Assembly (NCBI GenBank): GCA_965277795.1
Contig: OZ255840.1
Coordinates: 3,493,566 to 3,557,565 of the forward strand
From: Lapillicoccus sp.
GTDB lineage: Bacteria; Actinomycetota; Actinomycetes; Actinomycetales; Dermatophilaceae
DNA: 64,000 nucleotides
Direction of reading: 5' to 3'
Positions 18,198 through 39,100 of the stretch are shown piece by piece (within the stretch, counting starts at the first letter, position 1; the number at the start of each line of letters is the position of its first letter). Under the pieces are notes generated by a model. That model worked only from the letters and a program-made list of their open reading frames with translations. It ran no database searches and was not told where the DNA came from. The position numbers were made by a program, and so were the translations under genes.

Positions 18198-18202
18198 GCC
18201 CC

Positions 18203-18227
18203 GAGTATGCCTCGCACGGGCATACTC
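18203..18227. promoter_or_regulatory. Perfect 9-bp inverted repeat GAGTATGCC-N7-GGCATACTC in a 36-bp divergent intergenic region
   Basis: Lies between the start of the DUF202 gene (minus) and the NYN gene (plus). Candidate shared operator or hairpin. Confidence 0.35.
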
Positions 18228-18233
18228 GGCCCT

Positions 18234-22528: not shown

Positions 22529-22602
22529 GGCCAGGTAGCTCAGTTGGTACGAGCGTCCGACTGAAAATCGGAAGGTCGGCGGTTCGACCCCGCCCCTGGC
22601 CA
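22529..22602 (+). tRNA. tRNA-Phe (anticodon GAA)
   Basis: GGCCAGGTAGCTCAGTTGGTACGAGCGTCCGACTGAAAATCGGAAGGTCGGCGGTTCGACCCCGCCCCTGGCCA. Anticodon loop CTGAAAA. Confidence 0.9.
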
Positions 22603-22717
22603 CCTCCCAAAACCGCAGGTCAGCCGCACGTCAGATGAGCCGCGTACCTGGACGAGAACCCGCGCGTCGGACGACGATGGGCCGAGACGTGCCGGCGCAA
22701 CATGCGTCTGCACCTCG

Positions 22718-23446
22718 GTGACCTCCTCGTTCTGCCGAGCTCGCAGATCCGCGCCCCCCAAGAATCCGTGCGCCATCCCGGGAGCCGGGCACCTCAAGGC
22801 GGCGGAGAGGCCCACCGCTACGCCCGAGCAGGTCGCCCAGCTCATCGAGGCGATCACGCCGCGATACCGGGCGGCCGTGGTGCTGGCCGCCCGGTGTGGT
22901 CTGCGCCGCGGGGAGGTCTGCGGCTTGCGGGTCACCGACGTCAACCTCGAGGAGGGCACGGTGCGCGTGCACAAGAACTGGGTGGAGCTGCTGCAGGCGC
23001 CGGTGCGGTTCGAGAAGGACCCGAAGACCGACGCCGGGAAGCGAACGGTGAACATCCCGCCGCACGTGATGCCGCTGCTGGAGTACCACCTGCGCACGTA
23101 TGCCGGCCCGGAGTTCTTCAACGTCGGGCTCGACGGTTACCGGGCGCGGGGGGACACGATCTACCAGGCCTTCGTACGCGCCCGGCATGAGGTCGGGATC
23201 AACATGACCTTCCACGACCTGCGGCACACCGGGCAGACCATGGCCGCGGCCGCCGGCGCCAACCTGGCCGACCTCATACGCCGGCTCGGGCACTCCTCGT
23301 CGGTGGCCGCGCTGCGCTACCTGCACCCCGTCGAGGGCTGGGACAAGGAGATCCGCCCAAAACCTCTCCCGGATGGCGCAGACCCCGTCGTTGACCCACC
23401 TGTACCGCCGCCGTCGACCAGGCCGCCCAATGGCCCATCGAACTAG
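22718..23446 (+). pseudogene. Tyrosine recombinase (phage integrase), N-terminally truncated; catalytic domain only
   Basis: Linker TPEQVAQLIEAI, box I GLRRGEV, box II HDLRHTGQT...LGHSSSVAALRYLH (R..HxxR..Y present). The arm- and core-binding domains are absent. Only about 190 nt separate it from the tRNA-Phe 3' end. Confidence 0.7.
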
Positions 23447-23688
23447 GCGAAGGGCGCCAGGACCATGCCAGCTGATCCTCCGCCTGGGGTCTCCAGGATT
23501 CTCGAACGCCCGTACAAAAATGCTTGAGACATGACACTGTGCAGACCCAAATGCAACACAACCGGGCTTAGTGTTACATTGTGGATTTGAGCCTGTTCGG
23601 AAGCGAGAGCTCCGGACACCTTGAGCGAATCTCTAGGACGGACCCGAGGACCCGCTCGTGAGAGCACGCCGCCTTCATACCTGACCCC

Positions 23689-24792
23689 TTGCCTGACCTC
23701 ATGCCCTCACTGTCGGCACAAACCGTCCTGCGGTTGGGCGACGCTCGGGCGGCGCTCGCCGCCCTCGACAGCACCGCACGCCAGCTGCGCAACCCGAGCG
23801 TATTCAGGCAGCCCTCCCTGCGCCTCGAGGCACAGAGCACGTCGGCGTTAGAGGGGACGTACGAACCCCTCAGGGCAGTCCTGACCGCCGATCCCGAGGA
23901 ACACCAATCAGTCGGAATGCGCGAAGTCCTCAACTACGTGACGACTGCTGAGTTCGCGTTCCAATGGCTGTCCGACGACCGGCCGATCACCCTGGGTCTC
24001 CTAGCGGAGCTGCAGAAGCGGCTCGTCGTCGGCACAGCCGCAGACACGCCATCCGCCGGTGACGTGAGAGACATCCAAGTCGTCATCGGCAATCGTCCTG
24101 GGGAGCCCGTGCAGAGCGCTCGGTTTGTTCCGCACCCTCCCGGCGACGAGCTGAAGCGCCGACTTCGGGATCTCGTGGACTGGGTCCAAGACGGACACGC
24201 TGGATCAGTTGATCCCGTCGTAGGCGCCGCGATGGCGCACTACGCCTTCGAGACCCTCCATCCATTCAACGACGGGAACGGCCGGATCGGGCGGCTCCTG
24301 GTGGTCATGCAGCTCTACGGGTCAGGCACCCTGAGCGAGCCGACCTTGACGGTGTCCCCCTGGTTCGAAGCCCGACGCCAGGAGTACTACGACCGGCTCC
24401 TTGCGGTGAGTACCAACTCCCGCTGGGACGAGTGGATCCGGTTCTTCGCCGAGGGCCTAGCCGCCTCGGCCAGTTCCACCCGTTCGACGATGCTCGCCCT
24501 GGTCGACGCCCAGATCTTGCTACGTGAGCAGGTCCGCACTTCACCTCTCAGAGCAGATACCGCCCAGGCGGTGGTCGAGTTCGCCATGGAGCATCTCGTC
24601 TTCACCGTCAGGGAGGTGCAGGCGGCAGTCGCCGTCTCGTATCCCCGGGCGAACAAGCTCGTCGCGGACCTCGTCGACCTCGGGGTCCTTTCAGCCCTGG
24701 ACCCCGAGGGCGTCTACCGGAGACGGTTCTACGCTCCATTGGCGCTCAACGCCTTGACCGGGACAGAGGGCCGCGGAGACCATGAGGAATAG
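23689..24792 (+). CDS. Fic/DOC family protein (class II, intramolecular inhibitory helix)
   Basis: HPFNDGNGRIGR Fic motif. N-terminal TSALEG inhibitory motif ((S/T)xxxE(G/N)). Confidence 0.85.
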   Translation: MPDLMPSLSAQTVLRLGDARAALAALDSTARQLRNPSVFRQPSLRLEAQSTSALEGTYEPLRAVLTADPEEHQSVGMREVLNYVTTAEFAFQWLSDDRPITLGLLAELQKRLVVGTAADTPSAGDVRDIQVVIGNRPGEPVQSARFVPHPPGDELKRRLRDLVDWVQDGHAGSVDPVVGAAMAHYAFETLHPFNDGNGRIGRLLVVMQLYGSGTLSEPTLTVSPWFEARRQEYYDRLLAVSTNSRWDEWIRFFAEGLAASASSTRSTMLALVDAQILLREQVRTSPLRADTAQAVVEFAMEHLVFTVREVQAAVAVSYPRANKLVADLVDLGVLSALDPEGVYRRRFYAPLALNALTGTEGRGDHEE

Positions 24793-24826
24793 AGCGTCAG
24801 TTGTGCGCAGGAGTCCCGCGTGCCAA

Positions 24827-26000
24827 GCAGCAACTAGTGGTGTGTCCCGCAAATAACTAGCGGTATTGTTGGTATTCTTGTCGTATGAGCGCACCCGCGG
24901 CCCCGCCGTTGCCGATGTCAGAGAGTCAGCGGGCCACCTTGGAGCAGTTGTCCCGGTCCCAGTCCGCGGCGCATCGGCAGGTGCAGCGCGCCAAGGCGTT
25001 GCTGCTGGCGGCGGATGGGGTTGCCAACACACGGATCTCGGCGCAGGTCGGGGTGACGCCGGTGACGGTGCGGGCCTGGCGTGAGCGGTTCGAACAGGAG
25101 GGGCTGGCGAAGCTGGGTCAGGTCCGGGCGGGACGCGGGCGCAAGGAGAGCATCACCCAGGAGCAGGTCCGCGCGATCGTGCACGACACGTTGCACACCA
25201 CGCCGAAGGGTCAGACGCATTGGTCGTGTCGCATGATGGCCAAGCACGCCGGGGTGAGTTCCTCTACGGTGCAACGGGTCTGGCACGACCTCGGGATCAA
25301 GCCACACCGCCTCGACACGTTCAAGGTCTCGAACGACCCGGCCTTCGAGGAGAAGCTGACTGACGTGGTCGGGCTCTACCTGGACCCGCCGGAGAAGGCG
25401 GTGGTGCTGTGCGTGGACGAGAAGTCTCAGGTGCAGGCGTTGGACCGTACCCAGCCTTCGCTGCCGATGGTCAAGGGTCGTGGTGCGACGATGACCCACG
25501 ACTACAAGCGCAACGGCACGACCACGCTGTTCGCCGCCCTGAACGTGCTCACCGGGCAGGTCACGGGGCGCTGCTTCGACCGGCACCGGCACGACGAGTT
25601 TCTCAAGTTCCTGGCGGTCATCGACACCGAAGTGCCCCAGGGCCAGGCGGTCCACGTGATCCTGGACAACTACGGCACGCACAAGCACGCTGACGTGAGG
25701 CGCTGGCTGGGTCGGCACCAGCGGTTCCACCTGCACTTCATCCCGACCTCCTCGTCCTGGCTGAACCAGGTCGAACGGTGGTTCCGTGACCTGGACGGCA
25801 AGGCGCTGCGTCGAGGCAGTTTCAACTCGGTGCCTGACCTGATCGCCGCGATCGAGGACTACCTGCAGGCCAACAACGATGACCCCGCCCCGTTCGTGTG
25901 GACCGCGACCGCCGAGTCGATCCTGGCCAAGGTCACCCGCGCCCGCCGCAAACTCGAGGAAGTAGTTAATCAATGATGAGACGGACCACTAGCTGCTACA
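24827..26000 (+). mobile_element. IS630-family insertion sequence (about 1.17 kb)
   Basis: Terminal inverted repeats about 12-18 bp (AGCAACTAGTGG... / ...CCACTAGCTGCT). Single transposase ORF. Size is typical of IS630/Tc1-mariner-type IS. Confidence 0.6.
24885..25976 (+). CDS. IS630-family transposase
   Basis: N-terminal HTH (helix-turn-helix_38-like). DDE region VLCVDEKSQVQALDRT...VILDNYGTHKH...WLNQVERWF. Confidence 0.9.
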   Translation: MSAPAAPPLPMSESQRATLEQLSRSQSAAHRQVQRAKALLLAADGVANTRISAQVGVTPVTVRAWRERFEQEGLAKLGQVRAGRGRKESITQEQVRAIVHDTLHTTPKGQTHWSCRMMAKHAGVSSSTVQRVWHDLGIKPHRLDTFKVSNDPAFEEKLTDVVGLYLDPPEKAVVLCVDEKSQVQALDRTQPSLPMVKGRGATMTHDYKRNGTTTLFAALNVLTGQVTGRCFDRHRHDEFLKFLAVIDTEVPQGQAVHVILDNYGTHKHADVRRWLGRHQRFHLHFIPTSSSWLNQVERWFRDLDGKALRRGSFNSVPDLIAAIEDYLQANNDDPAPFVWTATAESILAKVTRARRKLEEVVNQ

Positions 26001-26080
26001 CCTACGGGTCGTCCAAATGAACTTCACAAGTGCTGCGCGATGAACTCGCGTGTCTCGCGATCGGTCGAGTAGATGCCGAC

Positions 26081-27907
26081 TCAGAGCATCCCGCGGGTGA
26101 GAAGCACCTTGTAGACGTTGCGGATCAGCCGATCCACGTCGGCATCCGTGACCTGCGTCCTGCGCGTCAGGACCGGGTCTCTGCTGGCGGCTCGGTCGGC
26201 GACCCACCGGTCCCCTCGTCGCACCAGGTCCGGCCCGATGATGACGCCGGCGTAGTCGTACTCGAAGCCCTGAGCCGTGTAGATGCAGCCGACCTGCGCG
26301 AACCCCGCCGGGTCGCTGGCCCACAGGGCCGCCGGTGGCGCGCCGCCTGTGGCCCTGTCGCCCTTGAGGTTCCACGGGCGCGACCAGTCACCGATCTTGA
26401 CGTCGTCGACGAGGGAGCCGTCCGCTCGCGGGCTGCTCCATCGCCAGCAGAAACCAGCGGTGATGCGGGCGCCGTAGCCCTCGGCCTGCCGGCTCTGCAG
26501 CCAACCGTCGAGCTCAAAAGGGGAGTCCATGAGCTCGACGGCATAGCTCGCCTCGTCGTCGGTCCATGGTCGGGGCCCGCCGGGTCGCAGATCCAGAAGT
26601 CTTTCGACCCAGTCGATGAACTCGAGGGATCCGCCGCAGCGGAACTGCGCGTCGAGGTCGATGTGAGTGACGGCGATGCCGCGGTCTTCGGCGGCTGTGG
26701 TGATGTCGCGGACGGTTCCCATCTCGCCGGGCCGGACGACCTGGTTCTCGTCCAGCAAGAACACCGGGACGCGTGCGGCGAAAAGCAGCTCTTCGACCTG
26801 TGACCGGCCGGTGCGCATCGACGACCGAGTGAAGCGGTTGGCCGAGGTCTCCCGGATGCGGTGGGCCTCGTCCAGGATGAGGCACTCGATCTCGTTCGGC
26901 GCCGCAGCCATGAAGGAGTTGAAGTACTGGAAGGCCCGCCGCACTCGGGGGGCACCGCGGGCGGCGACCTTGCGCAGCGTGGTCGTGAACGACTGTGACC
27001 CGGTGGCGTGGATGACCGTGCGGCCCTGTCTCGCCAGCTCGCCGAACAGCGAGAGCGCGATGACACTCTTGCCACTCCCCGGGCCGCCGGAGACCACGAC
27101 TGCCGTCTTCGTATTGCTCTCCCGCGCTTTCGCGACCGCGTGCAGCACCGTGTTGTAGGCGTCCCGCTGCTCGTCCAGCAGGACGAACATCTCCCGCCGT
27201 TGCACCTCCTCGGCGGCCAGCTGCATCAGCTGCTTCGACGGCACGATCCGGCTCGACAGGAGCTCGTCGGCAGCATCGGCTCCCGATGCGGGCGTGAAGA
27301 ACGACCGGAGGTATGCGGCCAGTTCACCGCGGTGCTGTCCCGTGAACAGCCTGACGCGGGAATCGAATCCGCCGCTGAGGAGATCTCGAACACCGTCGTC
27401 ACTGGCGTTATGCAGATAGGCGACGCCGGCAACCTCGCGACGGCGCTCGTTCAGCGTGGCGGTGAAGTCAGTCAGGTACTCGCAGTAGCCACGGACCTGG
27501 TCCAGCGGATGGCTAACGGGTCGGCTGCCGTAGCTGGGAACCGTGACCAGCACATCGCTGTCCTCATACCGGTTCGCTTGGCTCCACTGCTTCATCTCGA
27601 CGACGAGGTATGCGGGTCTCCCGGTACGTGAGGAGACGCCCGCCAGGACGACATCCGCGCGTTTGCTCGTGAGCGGCAACCGGTACTCGATCATCATCTC
27701 GACACCGCCGCGACCGGCTCCCACGAGATCCGCGGCGAGAACCGGCAGGCTCATGCCCCACGACCTCCGCTCGCCGGGAGACGGACGCTGACCGGTGTGA
27801 TGCACCATCTGGTCGGCGAGCATCTCCTCCAGGCGCGCCTCCAGCGCGGAGAACCCCTCGGCGGACTGACGCGACAACGAGGACAACGAGTAGCTCCCGG
27901 GCAGCAC
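26081..27907 (-). CDS. DUF2075/Schlafen-like P-loop ATPase with N-terminal nuclease-like domain
   Basis: Walker A VVSGGPGSGKSV, Walker B LILDEAH, motif VI-like KVLLTRG. DUF2075-typical GFCWRWS and CIYTAQGFEYDYAGVIIGPD. N-terminal DVVLAG...YLVVEMKQW region resembles a PD-(D/E)xK fold. An in-frame TGA is followed by 18 more in-frame codons (VGIYSTDRETREFIAQHL). Confidence 0.7.
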   Translation of the reverse strand: MLPGSYSLSSLSRQSAEGFSALEARLEEMLADQMVHHTGQRPSPGERRSWGMSLPVLAADLVGAGRGGVEMMIEYRLPLTSKRADVVLAGVSSRTGRPAYLVVEMKQWSQANRYEDSDVLVTVPSYGSRPVSHPLDQVRGYCEYLTDFTATLNERRREVAGVAYLHNASDDGVRDLLSGGFDSRVRLFTGQHRGELAAYLRSFFTPASGADAADELLSSRIVPSKQLMQLAAEEVQRREMFVLLDEQRDAYNTVLHAVAKARESNTKTAVVVSGGPGSGKSVIALSLFGELARQGRTVIHATGSQSFTTTLRKVAARGAPRVRRAFQYFNSFMAAAPNEIECLILDEAHRIRETSANRFTRSSMRTGRSQVEELLFAARVPVFLLDENQVVRPGEMGTVRDITTAAEDRGIAVTHIDLDAQFRCGGSLEFIDWVERLLDLRPGGPRPWTDDEASYAVELMDSPFELDGWLQSRQAEGYGARITAGFCWRWSSPRADGSLVDDVKIGDWSRPWNLKGDRATGGAPPAALWASDPAGFAQVGCIYTAQGFEYDYAGVIIGPDLVRRGDRWVADRAASRDPVLTRRTQVTDADVDRLIRNVYKVLLTRGML

Positions 27908-29275
27908 GACTGGCGTGCGGGGGGAGCATGTCCTTCGAGGGAAGCTCGTCGATCCGCGATAACGCTTGGGACTCTACGGGGCGGCTAGGGGAATCGCACG
28001 ACGGACACCCTACTTCTTTAAGCTCCGGCTTCAGGGAAGCATTGATGCAGCGCCACCGAGCCGAAGGCTCGATACCATGCGATGCGTGGCCTGGTGGTGG
28101 AATAGCCATTCTCTTGGCGGATTCTTACTTTCTGATCGTCCCGCTATGGAATGGGTAAAAATTCGCAAGATGCCGCGCTTTCGGGGTACTTTCAGGGGGA
28201 TAGACGGGGGACGTCCGCAAACGTGAACGGGTGCCTAATTGTGTGCCCACCGTCTTGGCGCGCGAACAACAGGGGCATGGAATAAGCGATCAGTACAAGC
28301 CGGGTGATGTAGTCAATGGTCATCGGTTGACCCTGGACAACCGCTGGGTACCGGTCACCGGAGAAGAACCGACCGGAGGCGCACCATTCCGACCCACCAC
28401 GGCACTCCCGAGTCCGACCTCGACCGTGACAACAGGCGCCACAGGTACCGCGCCATCGACGCAGCGACCTGGCGCAAAGCGCAGGTGGCTCCTGCCGGTG
28501 GCGGTTGACATCGTCGCTTTCCTGATCGGTCTACTGGCTGGGAGTGCGGGAGAGTGCTCATCCACGCCAACTGCTGCGGCCGGTTCGACTCCTGCCTCGA
28601 AAGTGACGGTGACCGCCCCGGCATCGGGCGGAAACTCGACGGCAACTTGCGGGTTTGACCGGTGTCGAGCAACCGGGCCCGGGCCGACAGTTTCGCGGGG
28701 ACGTCGACGACGTACTCACCGTCGGCGAGCAGCCGCTAGGCCAGCGGTCGGCCGACACCGTTGCTGCCCCAGGTTGCCCAGACCCGCTCGGGCCAGGCCC
28801 GCACCCTGTTTGCAAGTCGCGGCGTAGCCGGTCTTGTCGGTGGAGAATCGTCCCGTCGCCAGCACGCTCTCGTGAGTATCGACGACCTCGATCGTCACCG
28901 ACAGCTGTGAGGATCGACCCCGATGAACACCGTCGCGATGTCGCCACCTCGTCATCGTCGTCGTGGATCAGCAGGGATCGCGAGGCGGGCCTTGCCGTTA
29001 CGAGCAGGGGCAGTCCCCCTGGAGCCACACCTCGTCACGGCACCCAGCGGGATGCAAACCGAAACAGAGCCACGCCCATCATGCTGGTGGGCAGCCGCGA
29101 GAAGAGCAGCCCACCGGGCCCCGGGAACCGGGTCTGGCCGGACACCGGTCCTGCCGACAATCTTCTAAAAGCCGCGAGCCGGGTTGGGCTCGGCGGTTTC
29201 TTGAGCCACCAACGCTCTTGCTCGGCGTCGAGGCCGTAAGTAGATGGATCTGTCTACACAAGTTATCGTTGTGTT

Positions 29276-29473
29276 ATGGGCGAGACAACGACGATCCGCA
29301 TCAGCAGGGACACTCATGCGCGGGTGACGCGCCTGGCGGCCGAACGCCACGAAACGATCGATGAGACGGTGAGCAAGGCCATCCGCGCCCTCCGCCAGGA
29401 CGCCATGTCGCGGGACCTCGCTGCAGAGCTCACCGAGGATGAGACGGCGTGGCTTGATGCTGACGCCGGGTGA
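29276..29473 (+). CDS. Type II antitoxin (RHH/CopG-like, MazE analogue)
   Basis: 65 aa with a ribbon-helix-helix-like N-terminus (TTIRISRDTHARVTRLAAE). Overlaps the toxin start by 17 nt. Confidence 0.6.
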   Translation: MGETTTIRISRDTHARVTRLAAERHETIDETVSKAIRALRQDAMSRDLAAELTEDETAWLDADAG

Positions 29474-29795
29474 CGTCGTCGAACTCGACCTCGGCATGCC
29501 CGCCGGTAGCGAGGCCGGACTCCGTCGCCCGGTCATCGTCGTGACAGCCGCCCGGATCCTGAGAGGCGGACCCAACGTCGTGCAGGTCGTGCCGTTGACT
29601 CCAACGATCCGCACGAGCAGCACCGAGGTCCTGATCGACCCCGATGAGGACAACCGGCTTGTGACGCGTTCCTCGGCGCAGTGCCAGCACGTGCGATCTG
29701 TGGCCACGACTCGGATTCAGGAGCGCACCGGCAATGTCGGCCCCGTGGTCCTCAACGAGGTCCGCGAGACACTGGCGCTGCTGTTGGACGTATAG
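29457..29795 (+). CDS. MazF/PemK-family endoribonuclease toxin
   Basis: LTPGDVVELDLGMPAGSEAGLRRPVIVVT... matches the PemK/MazF signature. Confidence 0.8.
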   Translation: MLTPGDVVELDLGMPAGSEAGLRRPVIVVTAARILRGGPNVVQVVPLTPTIRTSSTEVLIDPDEDNRLVTRSSAQCQHVRSVATTRIQERTGNVGPVVLNEVRETLALLLDV

Positions 29796-29893
29796 CGTCG
29801 CGCGAGCATCAGGGGATCACCCGAATGCGACTCCCTCGAAGCACGAACGCGCACCGGCAGTCGCGTCACTCCCGCCGCGTAGTTCCGCACGTG

Positions 29894-30202
29894 TTACTCG
29901 GAGAACGGGTCCGTGACCGCGAGCCCGGCTGCGTTGGAGAAGTCTCTGACATTGCGAGGGGCCAGCTCGTAGTGGTCGGCGAGGCAGATGCCAGCGATCT
30001 GACCATCAGCCAGCGCCATCGGGTGACCGGAGGTTTCGGCCATCACCAGGAGCGCGGGCGTCTCTCGCCCGGCGAGCAGGTCGTAGACGACTACAGAGTC
30101 CGAGTAGGCCTCCGGTAGTCGTGCCCACCGGTCTTCCAGGTCCCGCCACCGACGCCCTACTGGGAGCCGCCCGAGCCCCCGTTCAATCTCCTCGACCGTC
30201 AC
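29894..30202 (-). pseudogene. vapC: VapC/FitB-like PIN-domain toxin, 5' end disrupted
   Basis: C-terminal two-thirds of a PIN toxin (VVTVEEIERGLGRLPVGRR...ADGQIAGICLADHYELAPRNVRDF...VTDPF). The frame extends upstream only to DPVVLEWAESIG and then meets a stop. The canonical N-terminal (M)xLDTxV segment with the first catalytic Asp is not in frame. Confidence 0.6.
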
Positions 30203-30213
30203 GACGCAGATAG

Positions 30214-30462
30214 TCAGGTCCGACGCGCCGATCGATTCCGCCCATTCGAGAACGACGGGATCAGAGCTACCTCAAGATCGACCCGGCCGGACTCGGTCAT
30301 TGAGTCGTGAAGGGACAACAGGAAGTTCCGCTCGGGACGGTTCACGACGGCGTCCAATATCGCCCGCACTCCGGCCTCTACCGACCGGCCGTGCTCGGCG
30401 GCCCGTCCTCGCAGCCGAGCGTGCGTGCGCTCGTCCAGCTGCCTGATTGTCAACGTGCTCAT
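30214..30462 (-). CDS. vapB: VapB/FitA-like RHH antitoxin
   Basis: MSTLTIRQLDERTHARLRGRAAEHGRSVEAGVRAILDAV (RHH). C-terminal GRVDLEVALIP toxin-binding-like tail. Start at internal ATG 30462. Confidence 0.65.
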   Translation of the reverse strand: MSTLTIRQLDERTHARLRGRAAEHGRSVEAGVRAILDAVVNRPERNFLLSLHDSMTESGRVDLEVALIPSFSNGRNRSARRT

Positions 30463-30670
30463 AGCGCGCCTCCTCCTATGACAGCAATGCCGGCACAACG
30501 TGATGAAGCGTCCTCCTCGGGTATGTCCGCCGCGAGCAGGCGCACCCCGCCCTTGGAGCGTCCGGCGGGGTGATCGACTGCCGTAGCATCGAAGCCGTGG
30601 CGCCGCTTGGAGCATGGCTAGTGGTCCTTTGCGGGGTGCCCTCCCCCTCGGTCAACGATCGGAGCTCATT

Positions 30671-31072
30671 GTGAAGTTTGCTTCAACCCGCCTCATGACC
30701 GACGACGTGCAGCGCCTTGTGGACTTCTATGAGTTGGTGACCGGACGGCGCTTCGAGTGGCCGAACCCGGCCTTCGCCGAGCTGGTGACACCGGGAGCGG
30801 GAGCCTTGGCCATCGGAAGCAGCGAGACGCTTCCCTTGTTCGCTGGCACCGGCTTGACCGCCGCTGACAACACCAGCGCCATCATCGAGTTCCAGGTCGA
30901 AGGCGTCGACGCCCACCGGGCCAGGATCGGAGACCAGGCACAGGTGGTTCAAGAACCAGTCACCCTGCCGTGGGGCAATCGTGCCTTCATGCTCGTTGAC
31001 CCCGACGGCAACCGGGTCAACCTGTACGAACCATTCACAGAAGAGGCGAAAGCGCGTTTCACCGACAGATGA
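30671..31072 (+). CDS. VOC-family (glyoxalase/bleomycin-resistance/dioxygenase fold) protein
   Basis: Two beta-alpha-beta-beta-beta modules. Start set to GTG preceded by GGAG. Confidence 0.7.
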   Translation: MKFASTRLMTDDVQRLVDFYELVTGRRFEWPNPAFAELVTPGAGALAIGSSETLPLFAGTGLTAADNTSAIIEFQVEGVDAHRARIGDQAQVVQEPVTLPWGNRAFMLVDPDGNRVNLYEPFTEEAKARFTDR

Positions 31073-31439
31073 CTCACCGAACGCGAGCGGTACCCACCAA
31101 ATCAAACGGGTAGGTGCCGAACGAGTCGCCAGCGACGAGTTGAGTCTTTACGCCGCGACGCGGTGCTGGCGCGGTGGTCCTCACGTTCCGCTTTGTCTTC
31201 GCGGGGGCTACCCGAAGTCCCGCCACCGAGACGGCTGATCCCGACGCGTGTCCCACCGCCACCATGTCATCGTCTCGTCGCAGCTCGGCGATGACCCTCG
31301 CCTCGAGTGTCTGTTGGGACATCTCCTCCGCCCACGCACAGGACCTCCCGGAAACGGCCTCCAAGGTCACGTGCTTGGGCCAAGGGGCGCCCGCACCGTC
31401 GCAGGACGTTCTCAGGTCACGGCGACGGCAGCCGGACCG

Positions 31440-32561
31440 TCAGCCACGGGCCTTGGCAATCGCCCTGAGTGCGTCCTGCCAGCCGGTCATGTAGGCGGCA
31501 CTGCCCCAGCCGGGACCGCGCTCCTCATGACCTCGACGTGTCCAATCGATGGCGTCGTCCCAACCGCGGAGGTACACGTCGTCATCGCGTCCGCCGAAAT
31601 ATGCCGGGCCTGCGACGGGACGAGGCACGCAGTCGAGGATGGTCATTTCGACCGCTGCAGCCCGTTGTCGCGTGCGGTCGGTGCCAGGGACCTGTGAGGG
31701 GGTGACACGGTCAGGCGCGACCACGGCCGTCCGGCGACCAGACGTCACGTCTCTGAAGGCCTTCGTGGCACCGCGGCTCACCGTCGCCGCGATCGTGGAG
31801 ACCGGGCCCGGCACGACGTCCTTCTCAGTGATCGAGGTCCGCGAGCGAGCCTCCGACGACCGTCGGTCTAGACCGAACGCGTCAGCAGCCATGTCACCGA
31901 GAAGTTCGAGGTTCCCTTGACCCAGAGCGCTGAGGGGATCGACAGATCCTTCGACCTGCTCGATCAGCACGACCGCGGGGGCGGCATCCTGCGGAATACC
32001 CGCGGCGTCCCGTGGACCCGGCAAGGGGGCGTCCTGCGGATCCGTGGGGCCTTGACGGGTGGTGTGCACAGGCGTGTCGTCCGTGCCGCGCCCGGGTTGC
32101 CCAGATGGCGCGTCGATGACCTCGGTCCGTTCCGCGCGGAGTTTCTTGTGGCTCGACACGAGGTCGTCCAGGTCGACACTGCCGATCACCGAGTGCAGGG
32201 ATCTCTGCGCCAAACGAGAGAGCGCGGAATGCTGGGCTCTAAGGTCGTCGGCAGCCGGGCCGTCGTCGATCACGCGGAAGTAGACCACCGCCTCGACTCT
32301 CACAGACCGGTTGTCCTTCGTCATGCACTCGTCCGCCGGGAGGCCGAGCGTCATGACCTGCTGCCGACTGACCGTGGTACCCCGCTCGCCCACAGGTGCC
32401 GACCTGTGGAGCACAGACACCCCGCCCGGGTCCTCGACCCAGGGCAGGCGGGCGGCGGCACCGCTTTGGTCCTGCCGGGCCGAAGCGACCGACAGGACGG
32501 CCGCGATGCAGACGCGAAACAACAGCACGGCAATGACGATGAGGAGAATAATGACGCCCAC
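31440..32561 (-). CDS. SPFH/band-7 domain membrane protein with atypical C-terminal half
   Basis: N-terminal TM plus band-7 core (VMTLGLPADECMTKDNRSVRVEAVVYFRVID...LRAQHSALSRLAQRSLHSVIGSVDLDDLVS). The canonical downstream band-7 motifs are not seen. Confidence 0.5.
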   Translation of the reverse strand: MGVIILLIVIAVLLFRVCIAAVLSVASARQDQSGAAARLPWVEDPGGVSVLHRSAPVGERGTTVSRQQVMTLGLPADECMTKDNRSVRVEAVVYFRVIDDGPAADDLRAQHSALSRLAQRSLHSVIGSVDLDDLVSSHKKLRAERTEVIDAPSGQPGRGTDDTPVHTTRQGPTDPQDAPLPGPRDAAGIPQDAAPAVVLIEQVEGSVDPLSALGQGNLELLGDMAADAFGLDRRSSEARSRTSITEKDVVPGPVSTIAATVSRGATKAFRDVTSGRRTAVVAPDRVTPSQVPGTDRTRQRAAAVEMTILDCVPRPVAGPAYFGGRDDDVYLRGWDDAIDWTRRGHEERGPGWGSAAYMTGWQDALRAIAKARG

Positions 32562-32741
32562 CTGCCCAACTCGCTTGTATGGGTGCGGGGTCGGTGGCGC
32601 AGATACCCGGGCCTACAGAAGCCCTCGCCCACCAAGGATACGTCAATCCGTCGACTCGCCACGTGTTCTTGCAGGTTCACAACGCGCGAGACTGATCTGG
32701 GCTAGTCCAGAGCTGGTCGGTGAACGCCTACAGTCGGACCC

Positions 32742-35700
32742 GTGGGTCTTGCCGTGCACGTCGACACGCGCACGGACCTTCTCGCGGACGCGCTGGGCGG
32801 GCTCCTCCGAACGCCGGTCGGTGGCGTGCTTTCCCGCGAGCTGGTCGTCGTGCCCGCCAAGGGTGTCGAACGCTGGCTCACGCAGCGCCTCTCGCACGTG
32901 CTCGGTGTCGACGACCGCGGCAACGGCGTATGCGCGGGGGTCGACTTCGTGCGTCCGGCCTCGCTGATCGGGCTGCTCACGGCCACCGACGACGCAGACC
33001 CCTGGGACCCCGAACGGCTTGTCTGGCGGGTCCTCTCGGTCGTCGACGCGAGCATGGACGCGCCCTGGTGCGACGCGCTCGCCCGGCATCTCGGCAAGGG
33101 GCGTGACGGTGAGGAGTACGAGCTGCGCCAAGAACGGCGGTGGACGGTTGCCCGCCGGATCGCCGGCCTCTTCGCCTCGTATGCGCGGGACCGGCCCCGC
33201 ATGCTGCAGGAGTGGGCTCTGCAAAGGGTCGGGGGCGAGGACGGAGACGGCGCAGGTGGGCAGGTCGATCCTGATCTGGGCTGGCAGCCCGAGCTCTGGC
33301 GCCGCGTCGCCGCGATCGTCGACGGCCCCACGCCCGTCCAGCGGCACCGCGACACGGTCGACGCAATCACGGGCGGTGCGCCGATTGCGTTGCCTGAGCG
33401 GCTGTCGCTGTTCGGCTACACCCGGCTCGCGATCAGCGAGCTCGAGCTGGTCGCCGCCGTCGCCGAGGTCCGTGAGGTCCACCTGTGGCTGCCGGTGCCC
33501 TCCCCCGCGTCCTGGGACGCGCTCGCCAGGATGGTCACCGGCGGGCCAGTCAAACGGCGTGAGGACCCGGCCGTCGAGGCCGTCCGGCACCCGCTGTCGG
33601 CCGCGCTCGGCCGCGACGTCCGCGAGCTGCAGCGGGCGCTCACCCTCGTGTCGAATGACCCAGCCAAGCAACAGATCTCAACCGTCGACCCGTCGCCGAG
33701 CACCCTCCTCGGCTGGCTCAAGCACGACATCGCCACCGACACCATCCCCGACCGTGCAACCCGGACCAGCCGGGAAGTCGACGATGCCGACACCTCGGTC
33801 CAGGTGCATGCCACCCACGGGATCCCCCGCCAGGTCGAGGTCCTTCGCGACGTCCTCACCGGGCTGTTGCAGGACGACCCGACCCTCGAACCGCGCGACA
33901 TCATCGTCATGTGTCCGGACGTCGACGCCTATGCGCCAGCGATCACGGCGGCCTTCGGGCTCGGCTCAGTCATCGAGGGCGGACACCCCGGTCACCGACT
34001 GAGGGTCCAGCTCGCCGATCGCGCGCCACGCGCCACGAACCCGGTGCTCGCCGTCGCTGCCGACCTGGTCGGGATCGCCGCCGGGCGAGCCACACTGAGT
34101 GACGTCCTTGCGCTCGCTGCGTCTCCCCCCGTGCGATACCGGTTCGCGTTCACCGACGACGACCTCGCCACAGCCGAGAGCTGGGCCCGTCAAGCCGGGG
34201 TCCGCTGGGGGCTCAGCGGCCCCTTGCGTCGGGCATACAAGCTCGAGCATTTCGACCAGAACACCTGGCAGAGCGGCCTGGACCGGTTGCTGGCCGGTGT
34301 GGCGACAGCCGAGCACGATCTCCTGGTCGGCGAGGTCCTGCCTCTCGACGACGTCTCCAGCGCGGACATCGACCTGGCCGGCCGCCTGGCCGAGCTGGTC
34401 ACCCGGGTCCGCGCCTGCGTCGAACGGCTTCAGGACCCGGGTCCGGTTCGGGAGCGCCTCTCCGTCCTGCGCGACGCAGTGCTGTCCTTGAGCGACACAG
34501 CGCCCTCGGACGCCTGGCAGCTCGCCCAGTTCGAGCGCATGATGGCGCGCGTCGTTGTCGGTGTCGCGGCCCACGCCGACCCGGATACTCAGGTGCGCCT
34601 CACCGACCTGCGCGGCATGCTCGACGTCGAGGGTAGCGCCCGACCCACCCGCGCCAACTTCCGCACCGGCAACCTCACGGTCTGCACGATGGTCCCGATG
34701 AGGTCGGTGCCGCACCGCGTCGTGTGCCTGCTCGGGCTGGAGGACGGGACCTTCCCGCGGACCCAGAGCATTGACGGCGACGACGTGCTCGCCCGCGACC
34801 CGGTGACCGGCGAGCTCGACCTGCGCGGCCAGGACCGGCAGCTCCTGCTCGACGCCGTCATGGCCGCCACGGACAAGCTCGTCCTGCTCTACACGGCGGC
34901 ACACCCCGGCACCGGCCAGGAACGGCCCCCTTCGGTCCCTCTCGGCGAGCTGATGGACGCCCTCGACGCCACCGCCGCGGCAACCGTCAGAGACCACATC
35001 CTCGTCAGACATCCGTTGCAAAGCAACGACGTTCGCAACGTGACCCCCGGTTTGCTCCTGGGCGGCCGGCCGTTCAGCTTCGACCCGGCAGCGCTGAGGG
35101 GCGCCCGAGCCGCCGCCCAACCGACCGCAGAGCCGACGCCATTCCTCGACGCTCCCCTCAGCGCCAAAAGGGGATCGACCGTCGTCAGCCTCACAGACCT
35201 ACAGTCGTTCTACGCCAACCCCGCCCGGGCGTTCCTGCGCCAACGGCTTGACGTGGCCGCACCCGGTGACGCCGACGAAGCGGACGAGGGTATGCCGGTG
35301 GACCCGAATGCGTTGGGGCAGTGGACCGTCGGCGACCGCATCCTGCGTCGACTGTTGTCTGGCGTGTCGCCCGAGACGGTCTTCTACGGTGAGGTCCGTC
35401 GAGGCGACCTCCCGCCGGGCATCCTCGGCGAGCGGATCCTCAGCGAGGTCGGCGGTCGCGCGGCTCGGATCATCCAGGCCACGGACGCCATACGGTCCGC
35501 ACCCGTTGAGGCCGTGTCGGTCGACGTCGCGCTGAGTGACGGACGCCGTCTGGTGGGAACGGTCCCCGACGTGCGGGGCGCACAGATAGTTCGCGTGGGG
35601 TATTCCTCCGTCCGACCTCGTCGCCGGCTCACGACGTGGGTGGACCTGGTCTGCCTGGCCGCGAACAACCCCACGCAGGCGTGGACGGCGATCGCGGTAG

Positions 35701-36101
35701 GGAGGCAGGGCACGGGCGTGCGAGCCGCCCGGTATGGGTCGATCGACAAGAGTGCGCTCGGACTCCTTGACGACCTTGTGACCGTCTATGACAGGGGAAT
35801 GCGCGAGCCGCTGCCGCTGCCCGTCACAACGTCGTCGACGTGGGCCGAAGCGGTGCACCGGGGAAAGCCACCGGACCGGGCTGCTCGAACAGCATGGGAA
35901 GGCAAGGACTTCGCCGACATCTTCGCCGAGAACCGCGATGCCGCCTTCAGCGCGGTGTTCGGGCTGCACAGCCCTTGGGAGCGGATCTCCGGGACCCCAA
36001 GCCCCGGCGAGGACCCGACGCGACAGCGCAGTCGTCTCGGCGCATACGCCGTACGCACGTGGGAGCCGCTGCTGCAACGCGAGCGGCTGGGGGCGCTGTG
36101 A
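32742..36101 (+). CDS. recC: Exodeoxyribonuclease V gamma subunit
   Basis: About 1119 aa with RecC-like N-terminus (leading helicase-like fold). Operon with recB/recD, stop overlaps recB start (GTGA). Confidence 0.85.
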   Translation: MGLAVHVDTRTDLLADALGGLLRTPVGGVLSRELVVVPAKGVERWLTQRLSHVLGVDDRGNGVCAGVDFVRPASLIGLLTATDDADPWDPERLVWRVLSVVDASMDAPWCDALARHLGKGRDGEEYELRQERRWTVARRIAGLFASYARDRPRMLQEWALQRVGGEDGDGAGGQVDPDLGWQPELWRRVAAIVDGPTPVQRHRDTVDAITGGAPIALPERLSLFGYTRLAISELELVAAVAEVREVHLWLPVPSPASWDALARMVTGGPVKRREDPAVEAVRHPLSAALGRDVRELQRALTLVSNDPAKQQISTVDPSPSTLLGWLKHDIATDTIPDRATRTSREVDDADTSVQVHATHGIPRQVEVLRDVLTGLLQDDPTLEPRDIIVMCPDVDAYAPAITAAFGLGSVIEGGHPGHRLRVQLADRAPRATNPVLAVAADLVGIAAGRATLSDVLALAASPPVRYRFAFTDDDLATAESWARQAGVRWGLSGPLRRAYKLEHFDQNTWQSGLDRLLAGVATAEHDLLVGEVLPLDDVSSADIDLAGRLAELVTRVRACVERLQDPGPVRERLSVLRDAVLSLSDTAPSDAWQLAQFERMMARVVVGVAAHADPDTQVRLTDLRGMLDVEGSARPTRANFRTGNLTVCTMVPMRSVPHRVVCLLGLEDGTFPRTQSIDGDDVLARDPVTGELDLRGQDRQLLLDAVMAATDKLVLLYTAAHPGTGQERPPSVPLGELMDALDATAAATVRDHILVRHPLQSNDVRNVTPGLLLGGRPFSFDPAALRGARAAAQPTAEPTPFLDAPLSAKRGSTVVSLTDLQSFYANPARAFLRQRLDVAAPGDADEADEGMPVDPNALGQWTVGDRILRRLLSGVSPETVFYGEVRRGDLPPGILGERILSEVGGRAARIIQATDAIRSAPVEAVSVDVALSDGRRLVGTVPDVRGAQIVRVGYSSVRPRRRLTTWVDLVCLAANNPTQAWTAIAVGRQGTGVRAARYGSIDKSALGLLDDLVTVYDRGMREPLPLPVTTSSTWAEAVHRGKPPDRAARTAWEGKDFADIFAENRDAAFSAVFGLHSPWERISGTPSPGEDPTRQRSRLGAYAVRTWEPLLQRERLGAL

Positions 36102-39100
36102 CCATGGAGGTCTTCGACGTCACCGGCCCGCTCCCGACCGGGACGACGCTGCTCGAGGCCAGCGCGGGGACCGGCAAGACGTGGACCATCTCGTCGCTGG
36201 TGACCCGATACGTCGCCGAGGGACACTGCCGACTGGACGAGCTCCTGGTCGTCACCTTCGGTCGGGCCGCCAGCGAGGAGCTGCGCCTGCGGGTCCGCGA
36301 ACAGCTGGTCGCCGCGGAGCACGCGCTGACCGCCGCCGACCCCCCCGATCCCACCGACCCCGCCGACCCCGCCGACCCCGCCGACCCCGCCGACCCCGCC
36401 GACCCCGCCGACCCCGCCGACCCTGACAACCCTGACAACGCCGACAGTCGCGCCAGTCGCCTCACAGAGGCAGATCCGCGCATCCAACCCTTGCTGGGTC
36501 AGCTTCTCGCCGGCGGCCCTCACGAGGTCGCCGCGCGACATGCGCGAGTCCGGGAGGCCCTGGCGACCTTCGACGGCGCCACCATCGCCACCACCCACCA
36601 GTTCTGTCAGCTGGTGCTGACCGGTTTGGGTATCGCCGGTGACACCGACGCCAGTGCTCGCCTCGTCGAGGACCTGGATGACCTCGTCAACCAGGTCGTG
36701 GACGACCTCTATGTGCGCGGCTTTGCCGGGCAGACAACGCAGCCGGAGTTCAGCCGCTCCGAGGCCGGAGCGATCGCCGCAACCGCCACCGTTGACCCGC
36801 AGGCACAGCTGGAGCCGGGCACCGTGAACCGAGACACGGTCGGCGGGCGGCGAGTGTCCTTCGCGCGGGCGGTGCGCGAGGAGTTCGACCGTCGCAAACG
36901 CCGGCTCGGGGTTCTCAGCTATGACGACCTGCTGGGCCAGCTCGCCGACGCGCTTGCGGACGAGGCTGCGCCGGCGCGAAGCCGGATGCGGCAGCGATGG
37001 CGCGTCGTGCTCGTCGACGAGTTCCAGGACACCGACCCGGTGCAGTGGCAAGTGCTCGACCGGGCCTTCACCGGCCACGCGACCATGGTGCTCATCGGGG
37101 ACCCGAAACAGGCGATCTACGCGTTCCGGGGCGGCGACGTGGTCACCTACCTCGCCGCCGCGCGGTCGGCTGTCCATCGCGCCACGCTCTCGGTGAACCA
37201 CCGCAGCGACGCCCCGCTCGTCGAGGGCCTGCAGGCTCTGCTCGGTGACGCGGAGCTGGGTGACCCCGAGATCATCGCGCACCCGGTCACCGCCTCTCGG
37301 AAGGGATCTCGACTCTGCGGCGCGCCCCACCCGGAGCCGTTCCGCCTGCGCGTCGTCGACCGGGCAGCGCTCGGCGCCCCCGCCGACGAAGGTCTTCCCG
37401 TGTCTCGACTGCGGCACGTCGTCGCGCAGGACGTGGCGGACGACATCGCCCAGCTGCTGCGCTCGGGCGCCACCTTTGACGGTCGACGTCTGCAGCCACG
37501 AGACGTCGCCGTCCTGGCCGACACCCGCCCCAAGCTGTTCGAGGTGGCCGCCGCACTCGAGAGGCTCGGGATCGAGGCGGTTCTCGTCGGGGCGGGTACC
37601 GTGCTCGGCGCACCGGCGGGACGCGCTTGGCTCACCCTTCTCGATGCGATGGCGCAGCCGCACCGTTCGACCCTTGTCCGGGCGGCCTCGTTGACACCGT
37701 TCCTCGGGCGGTCTGCCGGCTCTCTCGACGCAGCGGGTGACACCGCGACCGCCGAGGACGCGGAGACCGTCCGCGGCTGGGCGGACGCGCTGCGACAACG
37801 AGGTCCAGCCGCTGTACTCGAGCTCGCGAGCGGGGACGGTCGACTGGCCGATCGCGTGCTCCGTCAGCCGGACGGGTCACGCCTGCTCACTGATCTTCGA
37901 CACACAGCAGAGCTGCTTGCTGAGGCCGCCGAAGAAGGCCATGCGTCAGCCGGTGCGCTGGCCGCCTGGCTCGCCCGGCAGCGAGCCCAAGACCTGACGG
38001 TTGTGTCGACGGACCGGGCTCGGCGGCTGGACAGCGATGCGTCCGCCGTCCAACTGCTGACCATCCACGCGAGCAAGGGCCTGCAGTTTCCGGTGGTGTA
38101 TGCGCCGTCGCTGAGCGATCTCTACGCGCGACGGGGCGATCACCCGCTTTACCACAACCAGGACGGGGTGCGCTGCGTCGACGTCAGCGGCCACGGTGGT
38201 ATGCGCGAGGCCAGCGAGCGGGCCGCCCAGGAGGACTCTGGAGAGGAGCTGCGCAAACTGTACGTCGCGCTTACCCGTGCCCAGTCGCAGCTCGTGGCCT
38301 GGTGGGCTCCCAGCTCACACAACACCAGCACCTCTGCGTTGCATCGGGTGATCTTCGGGCGTCGCCCAGGTGGAGCGCAGGTCCCGCCGTCCGCTCCCGT
38401 CCGCGACGACGCGGATGTCCGGCGGATCACCGCCGCCTGGCAGGAGGCGGGCGCCTTTGCGGTGGAACCGTGCCTTGCGGACCGACAGGCCTACCGGCCG
38501 GGTTCGACCGAAGCCGCCAGTCTCGCGATCCGCCACTTCACGCGCTCGCTGGACCGAGCCTGGACCCGGACGTCGTACACCGCCCTCGCTCACGCGGCAG
38601 CGGAGACCGGGGCTCGGGGCCCCGACGCGTTACGTTCGGTGACCGAGCCCGAAGACCCACCACGCGAGGACGAACCACCGCTGGCCGGTTCCGGCGCGCA
38701 CCCGGACGCCGATCGCCCTCGGGTGTTGTCGCCGATGGCCGACCTCCCCGTCGGGGCCACCTTCGGGTCGCTGGTCCACGCCGTTCTCGAGCACGCCGAC
38801 CCGGACCAGTCCGGCGACGCCGCCGCCTGGCGGGCGCAGCTGCTGCGGCTCGTCGACGAGCAACGGGTCTGGTGGCCGGTCGACCTCGACCGCGAGCTCC
38901 TGACGACGGCTCTGGTGACTGCCTGCGACACACCGCTCGGGCCGTTGGCCCGGGACGTCACTCTTCGTTCGGTCGGGCGCGACGACCGGCTGACCGAGCT
39001 CGCTTTCGAGCTGCCACTAGGTGGAGGGGACAAACGGTCGCCGACGGTCACCGCTGCGTTGCTGCGCGACATGGCACACCTATGGCGCGAGCACGTCCCG

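What the first reader, a model, noticed from the sequence alone, without database searches (positions are those of the whole stretch)
22529..32700. Decayed genomic islet anchored at tRNA-Phe: truncated integrase, Fic, IS630, nuclease-ATPase, two TA modules
Immediately 3' of tRNA-Phe(GAA) lies a tyrosine-recombinase gene that retains only its catalytic domain. About 10 kb of accessory-type cargo follows: a class-II Fic AMP-transferase-like protein, an IS630-family IS, a DUF2075 ATPase with N-terminal nuclease-like domain, a degenerate AT-richer stretch, a mazEF-like pair, a vapBC pair with a broken toxin, a VOC enzyme, and an SPFH protein. Core recBCD begins right after. This is the signature of an old tRNA-integrated element undergoing reductive decay. 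I could not find a convincing attR copy of the tRNA-Phe 3' end.
Basis: partly seen in the sequence, partly recalled or inferred. Interest (0 to 1): 0.6.

Follow-up and report, generated by a model that had tools for sequence, protein, structure and literature searches.

The report
Decayed mobile-element remnant at tRNA-Phe

Summary
The window comes from a ~70% GC actinobacterium close to Lapillicoccus (Intrasporangiaceae).

**Boundaries.** Synteny with the closest genome breaks exactly at the last base of tRNA-Phe (22604). It resumes 20 nt before recC (32722). A 98%-identical metagenome relative shares only 31156 onward, so 22605-31155 differs even within the species.

**Origin.** Metagenome relatives carry the intact version: xis, a 381-aa integrase, a SoFic-type Fic, a nuclease-DUF2075 (Nhi-like) helicase and an HTH regulator. 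An attR copy of the tRNA-Phe 3' half follows, upstream of recC.

**Lesions in the window copy:**
- Everything from the tRNA terminator to integrase codon ~74 is gone.
- The integrase has a further 116-nt frameshifting deletion.
- No attR remains.
- Fic has a TGA at codon 27.
- The helicase has a TGA 20 codons early.
- The vapC toxin lacks its N-terminus.
- An IS110 fragment fills the "degenerate stretch".

An IS630 (TA duplication), mazEF, a VOC gene and the SPFH gene look intact.

Low dN/dS (0.07-0.09) against relatives suggests the lesions are recent. This is an ordinary decaying tRNA-integrated island, so interest is low.

The parts
22529..22604 (+). tRNA-Phe(GAA), intact. This is the integration target (attL side). 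Synteny with L001 ends exactly at 22604.
22605..22641 (+). Residual post-tRNA sequence. 22605-22622 match the sequence that follows the attR copy in L081/L084. The stretch keeps only the left arm (aaaaccgcaggtca) of the terminator hairpin seen there. The left breakpoint of the deletion lies at about 22630-22641.
22642..22757 (+). Integrase remnant, part 1. It covers codons ~75-112 of the 381-aa homologue and is out of frame with part 2. Codons 1-74, xis and everything further left are deleted.
22757..23446 (+). Integrase remnant, part 2. It covers codons 151-381 (catalytic domain) and follows a 116-nt frameshifting internal deletion. The C-terminal tail has two compensating frameshifts.
23581..24792 (+). 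SoFic-type class II Fic gene. TGG has become TGA at 23659-23661, which is codon 27 of the 403-aa homologues. A 363-367 aa product is possible if translation restarts at TTG 23689 or ATG 23701.
24837..25989 (+). Intact IS630-family insertion sequence, 1153 bp, with a 363-aa transposase. TA target duplication at 24835-36 and 25990-91. The site is empty in L098 and L081.
26024..27907 (-). Nhi-like gene: an N-terminal PD-(D/E)xK-fold domain plus a DUF2075/SLFN-g3 helicase. A premature TGA at 26081-26083 removes the last 20 codons, which are still readable in frame.
27986..28645 (.). Stretch with no recognisable coding content and no match in any fetched locus. Homology to the L081-type element ends at 27985.
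28646..29175 (-). IS110-family remnant. Transposase codons 7-101 lie at 28646-28930 with in-frame stops and frameshifts, followed by the upstream IS end.
29276..29795 (+). mazEF-like pair: a 65-aa RHH antitoxin (29276-29473) and a PemK/MazF toxin (29439-29795). Both reading frames are open.
29894..30462 (-). fitAB/vapBC-like pair. The FitA-type RHH antitoxin (30214-30462) has its 3' end fused out of frame onto a PIN toxin fragment (29894-30271). The fragment lacks about the first 20 residues, including the first catalytic Asp.
30614..31072 (+). VOC/glyoxalase-family gene, frame open.
31156..32722 (-). Segment shared with the 98%-identical relative L100 but absent from L001, L081 and L099. It holds an intact atypical SPFH/Band_7 gene at 31440-32561. 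32722 is the right edge of the between-species variable region, and recC starts at 32742.

Best explanation
**What it is.** This is the immobilised remnant of an integrative element that entered the 3' half of tRNA-Phe through a phiRv2-like tyrosine integrase.

**Intact form.** Relatives show the order: left-hand cargo, xis, int, (244-aa gene), SoFic-type Fic, nuclease-DUF2075 helicase, HTH regulator, attR. The cargo between int and attR is of the phage-defence type.

**What happened in the window lineage.**
- One deletion removed everything from the middle of the tRNA terminator to integrase codon ~74. That took out the promoter, xis and all left-hand cargo.
- A 116-nt deletion then frameshifted the integrase.
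- The right end, including attR, was replaced or lost.

With no working integrase, no xis and no attR, the element cannot excise. It now decays in place:
- nonsense codons in Fic and DUF2075;
- an IS630 insertion;
- an IS110 fragment;
- a 5'-deleted vapC.

**Shown:** boundaries, homology to intact elements, attR in relatives, and each lesion.

**Inferred:**
- the order of events;
- that attP carries the tRNA 3' half plus terminator;
- that mazEF, vapBC and VOC were cargo of this or a neighbouring element;
- that Fic and DUF2075 served in phage defence.
For: **Boundaries**
- L001 synteny stops at 22604 and resumes at 32722.
- L100 (recC dS 0.024) shares only 31156 onward.

**Intact relatives**
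- L081/L082 carry xis, a 381-aa int, a 244-aa gene, Fic, the SLFN-g3 helicase and HTH_3, followed by recC and recB.
- A 65-nt copy of tRNA-Phe positions 22558-22622 lies at L081 12646-12710 and L084 3388-3452, at 95-97% identity.

**Lesions**
- Integrase mapping by tblastn; the 116-nt gap relative to L108 and L081.
- Fic TGA.
- DUF2075 TGA.
- IS630 TA duplication and empty sites in relatives.
- IS110 remnant.
- vapC truncation.

**Other support**
- No attR in the window.
- GC is 65.6% against about 70% in the flanks.
- PADLOC SoFic E = 4.6e-79; the helicase gives weak PDC-S41, Nhi and AbiO hits.
- The helicase N-terminal domain has a nuclease fold.
- SoFic and Nhi-like proteins are published phage-defence genes.
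Against: - No relative with both attL and attR on one contig was recovered, so the full element and the size of the left-hand deletion are unknown.
- In L081 about 5 kb of cargo lies between int and attR. In Intrasporangium calvum the related integrase sits at the element's very end. The Fic-DUF2075 block could therefore be the remains of an older, separate element in a tandem array.
- The 18 nt after the tRNA match the flank of attR in L081. That fits an attP-borne terminator but does not prove it.
- mazEF, vapBC and VOC have no counterpart in any fetched locus, so their link to the element rests only on position and GC content.
- If the window is a long-read assembly, the small frameshifts could be sequencing errors. 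The large deletions could not, and the two nonsense codons are single-base substitutions rather than indels.
Confidence: 0.8

Rival explanations
1. **Accretion of several elements.** The interval holds remains of two or more elements that integrated one after another at tRNA-Phe. The integrase remnant would come from one element. Fic-DUF2075 would come from an older one, and mazEF/vapBC/VOC from a third.
For: - In I. calvum the related integrase lies at the extreme right end of an ICE-like element, and a second integrase 3' fragment follows directly.
- L108 has xis-int with different DNA downstream and no Fic.
- Synonymous divergence between the window and L081 is 0.40 for int but 0.70-0.85 for DUF2075 and Fic, which suggests a mosaic history.
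- The 27986-31155 part has no match in L081-type elements.
Against: - No att copy lies between int and Fic in any of L081, L098, L099 or the window (one search shows 29 nt between int and the 244-aa gene in L081).
- The int-Fic junction is conserved in four independent contigs.
Confidence: 0.3
2. **Apparent decay is partly an assembly artefact.** The frameshifts and stop codons would be sequencing errors in a metagenome or long-read assembly, and the element would really be more intact.
For: - Related contigs from long-read metagenomes (L098, L099, L100) show many fragmented genes.
- The two compensating frameshifts in the integrase tail are the kind of change that indel errors produce.
Against: - The main lesions are structural. 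They include loss of more than 220 nt of the int 5' end plus xis, a 116-nt deletion, absence of attR, and a 5'-deleted vapC.
- Two lesions are base substitutions that create TGA.
- Flanking core genes (recC, recB, and the genes called just upstream of tRNA-Phe) read as uninterrupted open frames with complete domain matches.
Confidence: 0.07
3. **Domesticated, still-functional defence islet.** The lesions would be tolerated. Fic would restart at TTG/ATG 23689/23701, and the helicase would work without its last 20 residues. The host would keep the immobilised cargo for phage defence.
For: - dN/dS is 0.07-0.09 for Fic and DUF2075 against L081.
- The catalytic and inhibitory motifs of Fic are intact.
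- The helicase is 97% complete and its nuclease triad is conserved.
- int-Fic-DUF2075 persists next to recC in several lineages.
Against: - Pairwise dN/dS mostly reflects history before the lesions. For Fic it rises to 0.20 against the closest copy, L098.
- The 36 N-terminal Fic residues and the helicase tail are conserved in homologues, so losing them probably has a cost.
- L100 has reduced DUF2075 to an inverted fragment, which argues against strong retention.
Confidence: 0.2

Closest known systems
tRNA-integrated genomic islands and integrative elements of Actinomycetota, with phiRv2-like or AICE/ICE-type tyrosine integrases
   Same: - Sits at the 3' end of a tRNA gene.
- Carries a tyrosine integrase with PF26003+PF00589 architecture in intact relatives, preceded by an HTH_17 excisionase.
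- attR is a direct repeat running from the anticodon loop to the tRNA 3' end.
- GC content is lower than the host's, and presence varies among relatives.
   Different: - The window copy has no attR, no xis and only a broken integrase.
- No replication or transfer genes were seen in the part of the related elements that could be read. The I. calvum relative, by contrast, has a T4 coupling protein and a primase.
SoFic single-gene phage-defence system (Millman et al. 2022), a class II Fic AMPylase
   Same: - Full-length match to the PADLOC SoFic model (E = 4.6e-79).
- N-terminal inhibitory motif TSALEG.
- Fic motif HPFNDGNGRIGR.
   Different: - Scores well below the NCBIfam equivalog cut-off (114.6 against 550 bits), so it is a distant relative.
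- The window copy has a stop at codon 27.
- No defence activity has been tested.
Nhi and Nhi-like nuclease-helicase immunity proteins (Bari et al. 2022; Millman et al. 2022)
   Same: Same domain order: an N-terminal PD-(D/E)xK-type nuclease followed by a DUF2075 SF1 helicase, encoded as a single gene on mobile or variable DNA.
   Different: - Only weak, partial sequence similarity to the PADLOC Nhi model (E = 2.8e-8, helicase part only).
- The best PADLOC hit is the candidate family PDC-S41.
- The window copy ends 20 residues early.
SSV-type archaeal integration, in which attP lies inside int and integration splits the gene
   Same: A 5'-truncated integrase gene lies directly next to the tRNA gene.
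   Different: - The integrase is intact in the integrated relatives L081/L082.
- No tRNA-like sequence lies inside the int gene.
- The truncation here is therefore a deletion, not a split caused by integration.

Membership tests
tRNA-integrated genomic island / integrative element | Inserted at the 3' end of a tRNA gene, with the breakpoint at the tRNA relative to genomes that lack it | tested here: met
   L001 synteny ends at 22604, the last base of tRNA-Phe.
tRNA-integrated genomic island / integrative element | Site-specific recombinase gene | tested here: met
   Present only as a remnant: PF00589 alone, with codons 1-74 and about 113-150 missing. Intact 381-aa copies occur in relatives.
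tRNA-integrated genomic island / integrative element | Flanking direct repeats (attL/attR) derived from the tRNA 3' part | tested here: not met
   The window has no second copy. Relatives L081/L082/L084 have one, 65 nt long at 95-97% identity. The window copy is therefore a degraded member.
tRNA-integrated genomic island / integrative element | Variable presence among close relatives, and atypical composition | tested here: met
   Absent in L001 and different in the 98%-identical L100. GC is 65.6% against about 70%.
SoFic (class II Fic) defence protein | Fic motif HxFx(D/E)GNGRxxR and an N-terminal inhibitory (S/T)xxxE(G/N) motif | tested here: met
   HPFNDGNGRIGR and TSALEG are both in the translation. 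PADLOC SoFic E = 4.6e-79.
SoFic (class II Fic) defence protein | Reaches the curated equivalog score (NF046030) | tested here: not met
   114.6 bits against a cut-off of 550.
SoFic (class II Fic) defence protein | Uninterrupted reading frame | tested here: not met
   TGA at 23659-23661, which is codon 27 of the 403-aa homologues.
SoFic (class II Fic) defence protein | Protects against phage | not testable with these tools
   Requires an infection assay.
Nhi-like nuclease-helicase | N-terminal PD-(D/E)xK nuclease domain | tested here: met
Nhi-like nuclease-helicase | C-terminal DUF2075 (PF09848) helicase domain | tested here: met
   PF09848 E = 5.1e-81. A premature stop removes the last 20 residues.
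Nhi-like nuclease-helicase | Sequence membership in the Nhi family itself | tested here: inconclusive
   PADLOC Nhi E = 2.8e-8 over the helicase part only. The best hit is PDC-S41 at 4.8e-15.
IS630 family | DDE_3 transposase that reaches the NCBIfam cut-off, TA target duplication, terminal inverted repeats | tested here: met
   NF033545 scores 279 bits against a cut-off of 100. TA is present on both sides, and L098 has an empty site with a single TA. The terminal repeats are short (GTGGT..GTC).
VapBC/FitAB toxin-antitoxin | Complete PIN domain, including the N-terminal catalytic Asp | tested here: not met
   The fragment aligns to FitB residues 21-137 of 139, and no DTNV-type N-terminus occurs in any frame.
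MazEF toxin-antitoxin | PemK/MazF toxin preceded by a small antitoxin gene | tested here: met
   PF02452 E = 1.1e-16. A 65-aa RHH-like ORF overlaps the toxin start.
SSV-type split integrase | attP lies inside the int ORF, so the integrated form carries a split int | tested here: not met
   The integrase is intact in the integrated L081/L082, and the only tRNA-like match there is attR.

The most novel reading that the evidence does not exclude
After immobilisation the remnant was domesticated. The host would keep the N-terminally shortened SoFic and the slightly truncated nuclease-DUF2075 helicase as a fixed defence locus next to recBCD. The open 242-codon catalytic-domain reading frame of the integrase, possibly transcribed by read-through from tRNA-Phe now that the terminator hairpin is destroyed, might also be retained for some function.
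Probability: 0.08. Interest if true: 0.45.

Novelty: new member of a known kind. Interest (0 to 1): 0.2.

Why it matters
This is mainly useful as annotation. It marks 22605-31155 (and up to 32722 between species) as horizontally acquired, non-core DNA. It also flags the integrase, Fic, DUF2075, vapC and IS110 reading frames as pseudogenes or truncated genes.

It gives a clear worked example of how a tRNA-integrated island carrying defence-type genes becomes locked in place and decays. The example is unusually well documented, because intact and differently decayed versions exist in related metagenome contigs.

It does not open a new biological question. The only mildly interesting points are the repeated int-SoFic-Nhi-like cargo next to recBCD in this lineage and the uncharacterised left-hand cargo of the intact relatives.

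Tried and rejected
- **attR in the window.** blastn-short with the tRNA plus flank, and a pattern search for the right arm of the terminator with 3 mismatches, found nothing.
- **Exact-sequence look-ups** of the window's IS630 transposase, VOC and MazF are not on record, so the source genome was not identified.
- **Genome scan with the lipase gene** returned 80 loci, but of the 14 best checked for tRNAs only L001 shows the tRNA-Phe synteny. The others are paralogues or distant hits without a tRNA-Phe.
- **Metagenome scan with the RecC N-terminus** gave few close relatives, and none had both att sites on one contig.
- **Viral contig scan with the intact integrase** gave only hits of 23-31% identity. 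PHROGs hits on the neighbouring genes were limited to HTH regulators and methyltransferase fragments. There is no support for a prophage.
- **SSV-type split integrase** was rejected, because the integrase is intact in integrated relatives.
- **PDB sequence search** with the DUF2075 N-domain found nothing. A fold search was needed instead.
- **Pfam on ten ORFs** in 27.5-29.4 kb and 31.07-31.37 kb found nothing.
- **Rfam** over 21-34 kb found only the tRNA.
- **Promoter and terminator scan** was uninformative.
- **First dN/dS run for Fic** was invalid because the stop codon shifted the codon mapping. It was redone.

Full report
**1. The observation**

ARAGORN finds tRNA-Phe(GAA) at 22529-22604, and Rfam agrees at 70.6 bits. 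The genome has about 70% GC. I picked real genes with a GC3 frame filter and confirmed them with Pfam, NCBIfam and PADLOC.

- an integrase frame with only the catalytic domain PF00589 (22565-23446);
- Fic_N+Fic (23689-24792);
- an IS630 transposase (24885-25976);
- a DUF2075/SLFN-g3 helicase (26081-27907, minus strand);
- a low-GC stretch (63% over 27986-29275);
- an RHH antitoxin plus PemK/MazF (29276-29795);
- a FitA-type RHH followed by a PIN fragment (29894-30462, minus strand);
- a VOC gene (30614-31072);
- a Band_7/SPFH gene (31440-32561, minus strand);
- recC from 32742, followed by recB.

GC is 65.6% across 22605-31155, against 69.8% and 70.4% in the flanks. The 64 kb contains no second copy of the tRNA-Phe 3' end.

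**2. Boundaries from relatives**

A genome scan with the lipase gene upstream of tRNA-Phe found one syntenic genome, a Lapillicoccus sp. MAG (Intrasporangiaceae).
- It is collinear with the window at 83-90% nucleotide identity through tRNA-Lys, tRNA-Glu, tRNA-Asp and the lipase gene.
- The alignment stops at window 22604, the last base of tRNA-Phe, and resumes at 32722, 20 nt before the recC start.
- In between, L001 has 2.8 kb of unrelated DNA with a membrane protein and no integrase.

A metagenome contig (L100) is 98% identical to the window from 31156 to 42323 (recC dS 0.024).
- To the left of 31156 its content is different.
- That content includes an inverted DUF2075 fragment and a piece of the element's left part.

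The interval is therefore variable between species up to 32722 and within the species up to 31156.

**3. What the island came from**

The closest integrase homologues are 370-381 aa and carry PF26003 plus PF00589. P0002 (79% identical) sits on a 90-kb metagenome contig (L081/L082). The order there is: two large uncharacterised genes, a 110-aa gene, an HTH_17 excisionase, the 381-aa integrase, a 244-aa gene, Fic, the SLFN-g3 helicase, an HTH_3 regulator, then recC and recB.

The window aligns to this contig piece by piece:

| Segment | Identity to L081 |
|---|---|
| int | 88-91% |
| Fic | 82% |
| helicase | 85% |
| recC | 76% |

L081 12646-12710 is a 65-nt, 95%-identical copy of window 22558-22622. 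That covers the tRNA-Phe from its anticodon loop to its 3' end plus 18 nt. L084, from another sample, has the same copy at 97%. In L081 a perfect hairpin terminator follows it. The window keeps only the left arm of that hairpin after its tRNA.

**4. The lesions in the window copy**

(a) *Integrase.*
- tblastn of P0002 shows codons ~75-112 at 22642-22757 in one frame and codons 151-381 from 22757 in another.
- The missing piece is 116 nt, and it is present in L108 and L081.
- Codons 1-74, xis and everything further left are absent.
- The remnant starts about 37 nt after the tRNA.
- The C-terminal tail has two compensating frameshifts.

(b) *The 244-aa gene* is cleanly absent.

(c) *Fic.* TGG has become TGA at 23659-23661, codon 27 of the 403-aa homologues. 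Their N-termini are conserved between L081 and L098. A restart at 23689 or 23701 would give a protein lacking 36-40 residues.

(d) *IS630.* A 1153-bp insertion at 24837-25989 with a TA duplication. L098 and L081 have the empty site.

(e) *DUF2075.* A TGA replaces the Gly codon in ...TRGML|GVGIYSTDRETREFIAQQL. The last 20 codons remain readable in frame.

(f) *Loss of homology.* Homology to the element ends at 27985. The HTH_3 gene and attR are missing.

(g) *IS110.* 28646-29175 is an IS110 remnant. Transposase codons 7-101 carry stops and frameshifts.

(h) *vapC.* The PIN fragment aligns to FitB residues 21-137 of 139. The antitoxin's 3' end runs out of frame into it, so a deletion removed the junction and the first catalytic Asp.

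Genes that look intact:
- IS630;
- mazEF;
- VOC;
- SPFH, which has full-length homologues of 379-387 aa.

**5. Nature of the cargo**

*Fic.* It matches the PADLOC SoFic model end to end (E = 4.6e-79). It has the class II inhibitory motif and an intact Fic motif.

*Helicase.* Its N-terminal 265 residues fold (pLDDT 80.7) into a restriction-endonuclease-like domain.
- D85, E104 and K106 are invariant.
- This is the Nhi / Nhi-like architecture.

SoFic and Nhi-like proteins are published single-gene phage-defence systems (10.1101/2022.05.11.491447 and 10.1101/776245).

Relatives carry further defence-type cargo to the left of int, namely AbiJ and methyltransferase fragments. Nothing indicates a prophage. 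A related integrase in Intrasporangium calvum closes an ICE-like element that has a T4 coupling protein and a primase.

**6. Timing**

Nei-Gojobori estimates:

| Gene | Comparison | dN/dS | dS |
|---|---|---|---|
| int catalytic part | window vs L081 | 0.07 | 0.40 |
| Fic | window vs L081 | 0.09 | 0.85 |
| DUF2075 | window vs L081 | 0.07 | 0.70 |
| recC | window vs L081 | 0.25 | 0.75 |
| Fic | window vs L098 | 0.20 | 0.13 |

The element genes were under purifying selection for most of their divergence, so the inactivating changes are probably recent. The lower dS of int points to a mosaic history.

**7. Mechanism**

My best reading (confidence 0.8) has three steps.
1. A tyrosine-integrase element integrated into the 3' half of tRNA-Phe. 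It supplied a replacement tRNA 3' half and terminator.
2. A deletion from the terminator into the integrase, together with loss of attR, locked the remainder in place.
3. The locked remainder is now being eroded by point mutations, small deletions and IS activity.

Rivals, with my confidence in each:
- accretion of several elements (0.3, partly compatible with the best reading);
- domestication of the defence genes (0.2);
- assembly artefact (0.07).

**8. Verdict**

- the degenerate stretch is an IS110 remnant;
- SPFH lies outside the strain-specific part;
- the decay is probably recent rather than old.

This is a new member of a well-known kind and of low general interest.

Noticed in passing
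L106 (Intrasporangium calvum CP002343) about 11140-11250: Directly after the intact 375-aa integrase that closes an ICE-like element lies a second fragment encoding the integrase 3' part (FHDLRHTG...LGHSS). This suggests repeated integration at the same site, leaving integrase stubs behind.
   Followed up: partly
window 31440-32561 (-): An atypical SPFH/Band_7 protein. Only residues ~34-144 of the 373-aa protein match the Pfam domain, and a long C-terminal extension follows. The family is small (46 hits in 5.8 billion proteins). It lies divergently next to recC only in the window and L100. In another Lapillicoccus MAG (L101) it sits in a different place.
   Followed up: partly
window 32722/32723: Homology to L001, L081 and L099 all starts at the same point, 20 nt before the recC start codon. 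The recC promoter region is therefore not conserved among these relatives.
   Followed up: no
L081 229-4295 (-): Two large adjacent genes (849 aa and 489 aa) lie in the left part of the intact element. The 489-aa product gives only a weak AAA_19 hit, and neither has a PHROGs hit. They may be an uncharacterised defence gene pair.
   Followed up: no
L100 11205-14070: The 98%-identical relative has an inverted DUF2075 fragment next to the SPFH gene, then a nucleotidyltransferase (NTP_transf_2) gene followed by an uncharacterised 134-aa gene (possibly a toxin-antitoxin pair; not tested). The same locus has decayed along a different path.
   Followed up: partly
window 27986-28645: About 660 nt at 63% GC with no Pfam hit, no RNA family hit and no similarity to any fetched locus.
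   Followed up: partly
window 22605-22641: The deletion destroyed the hairpin terminator after tRNA-Phe, so transcription may read through into the integrase remnant and Fic.
   Followed up: no
window 18138-18803 (+): A NYN-domain gene lies in the conserved core region between the tRNA-Glu/tRNA-Asp pair and tRNA-Phe. It is not part of the island.
   Followed up: no
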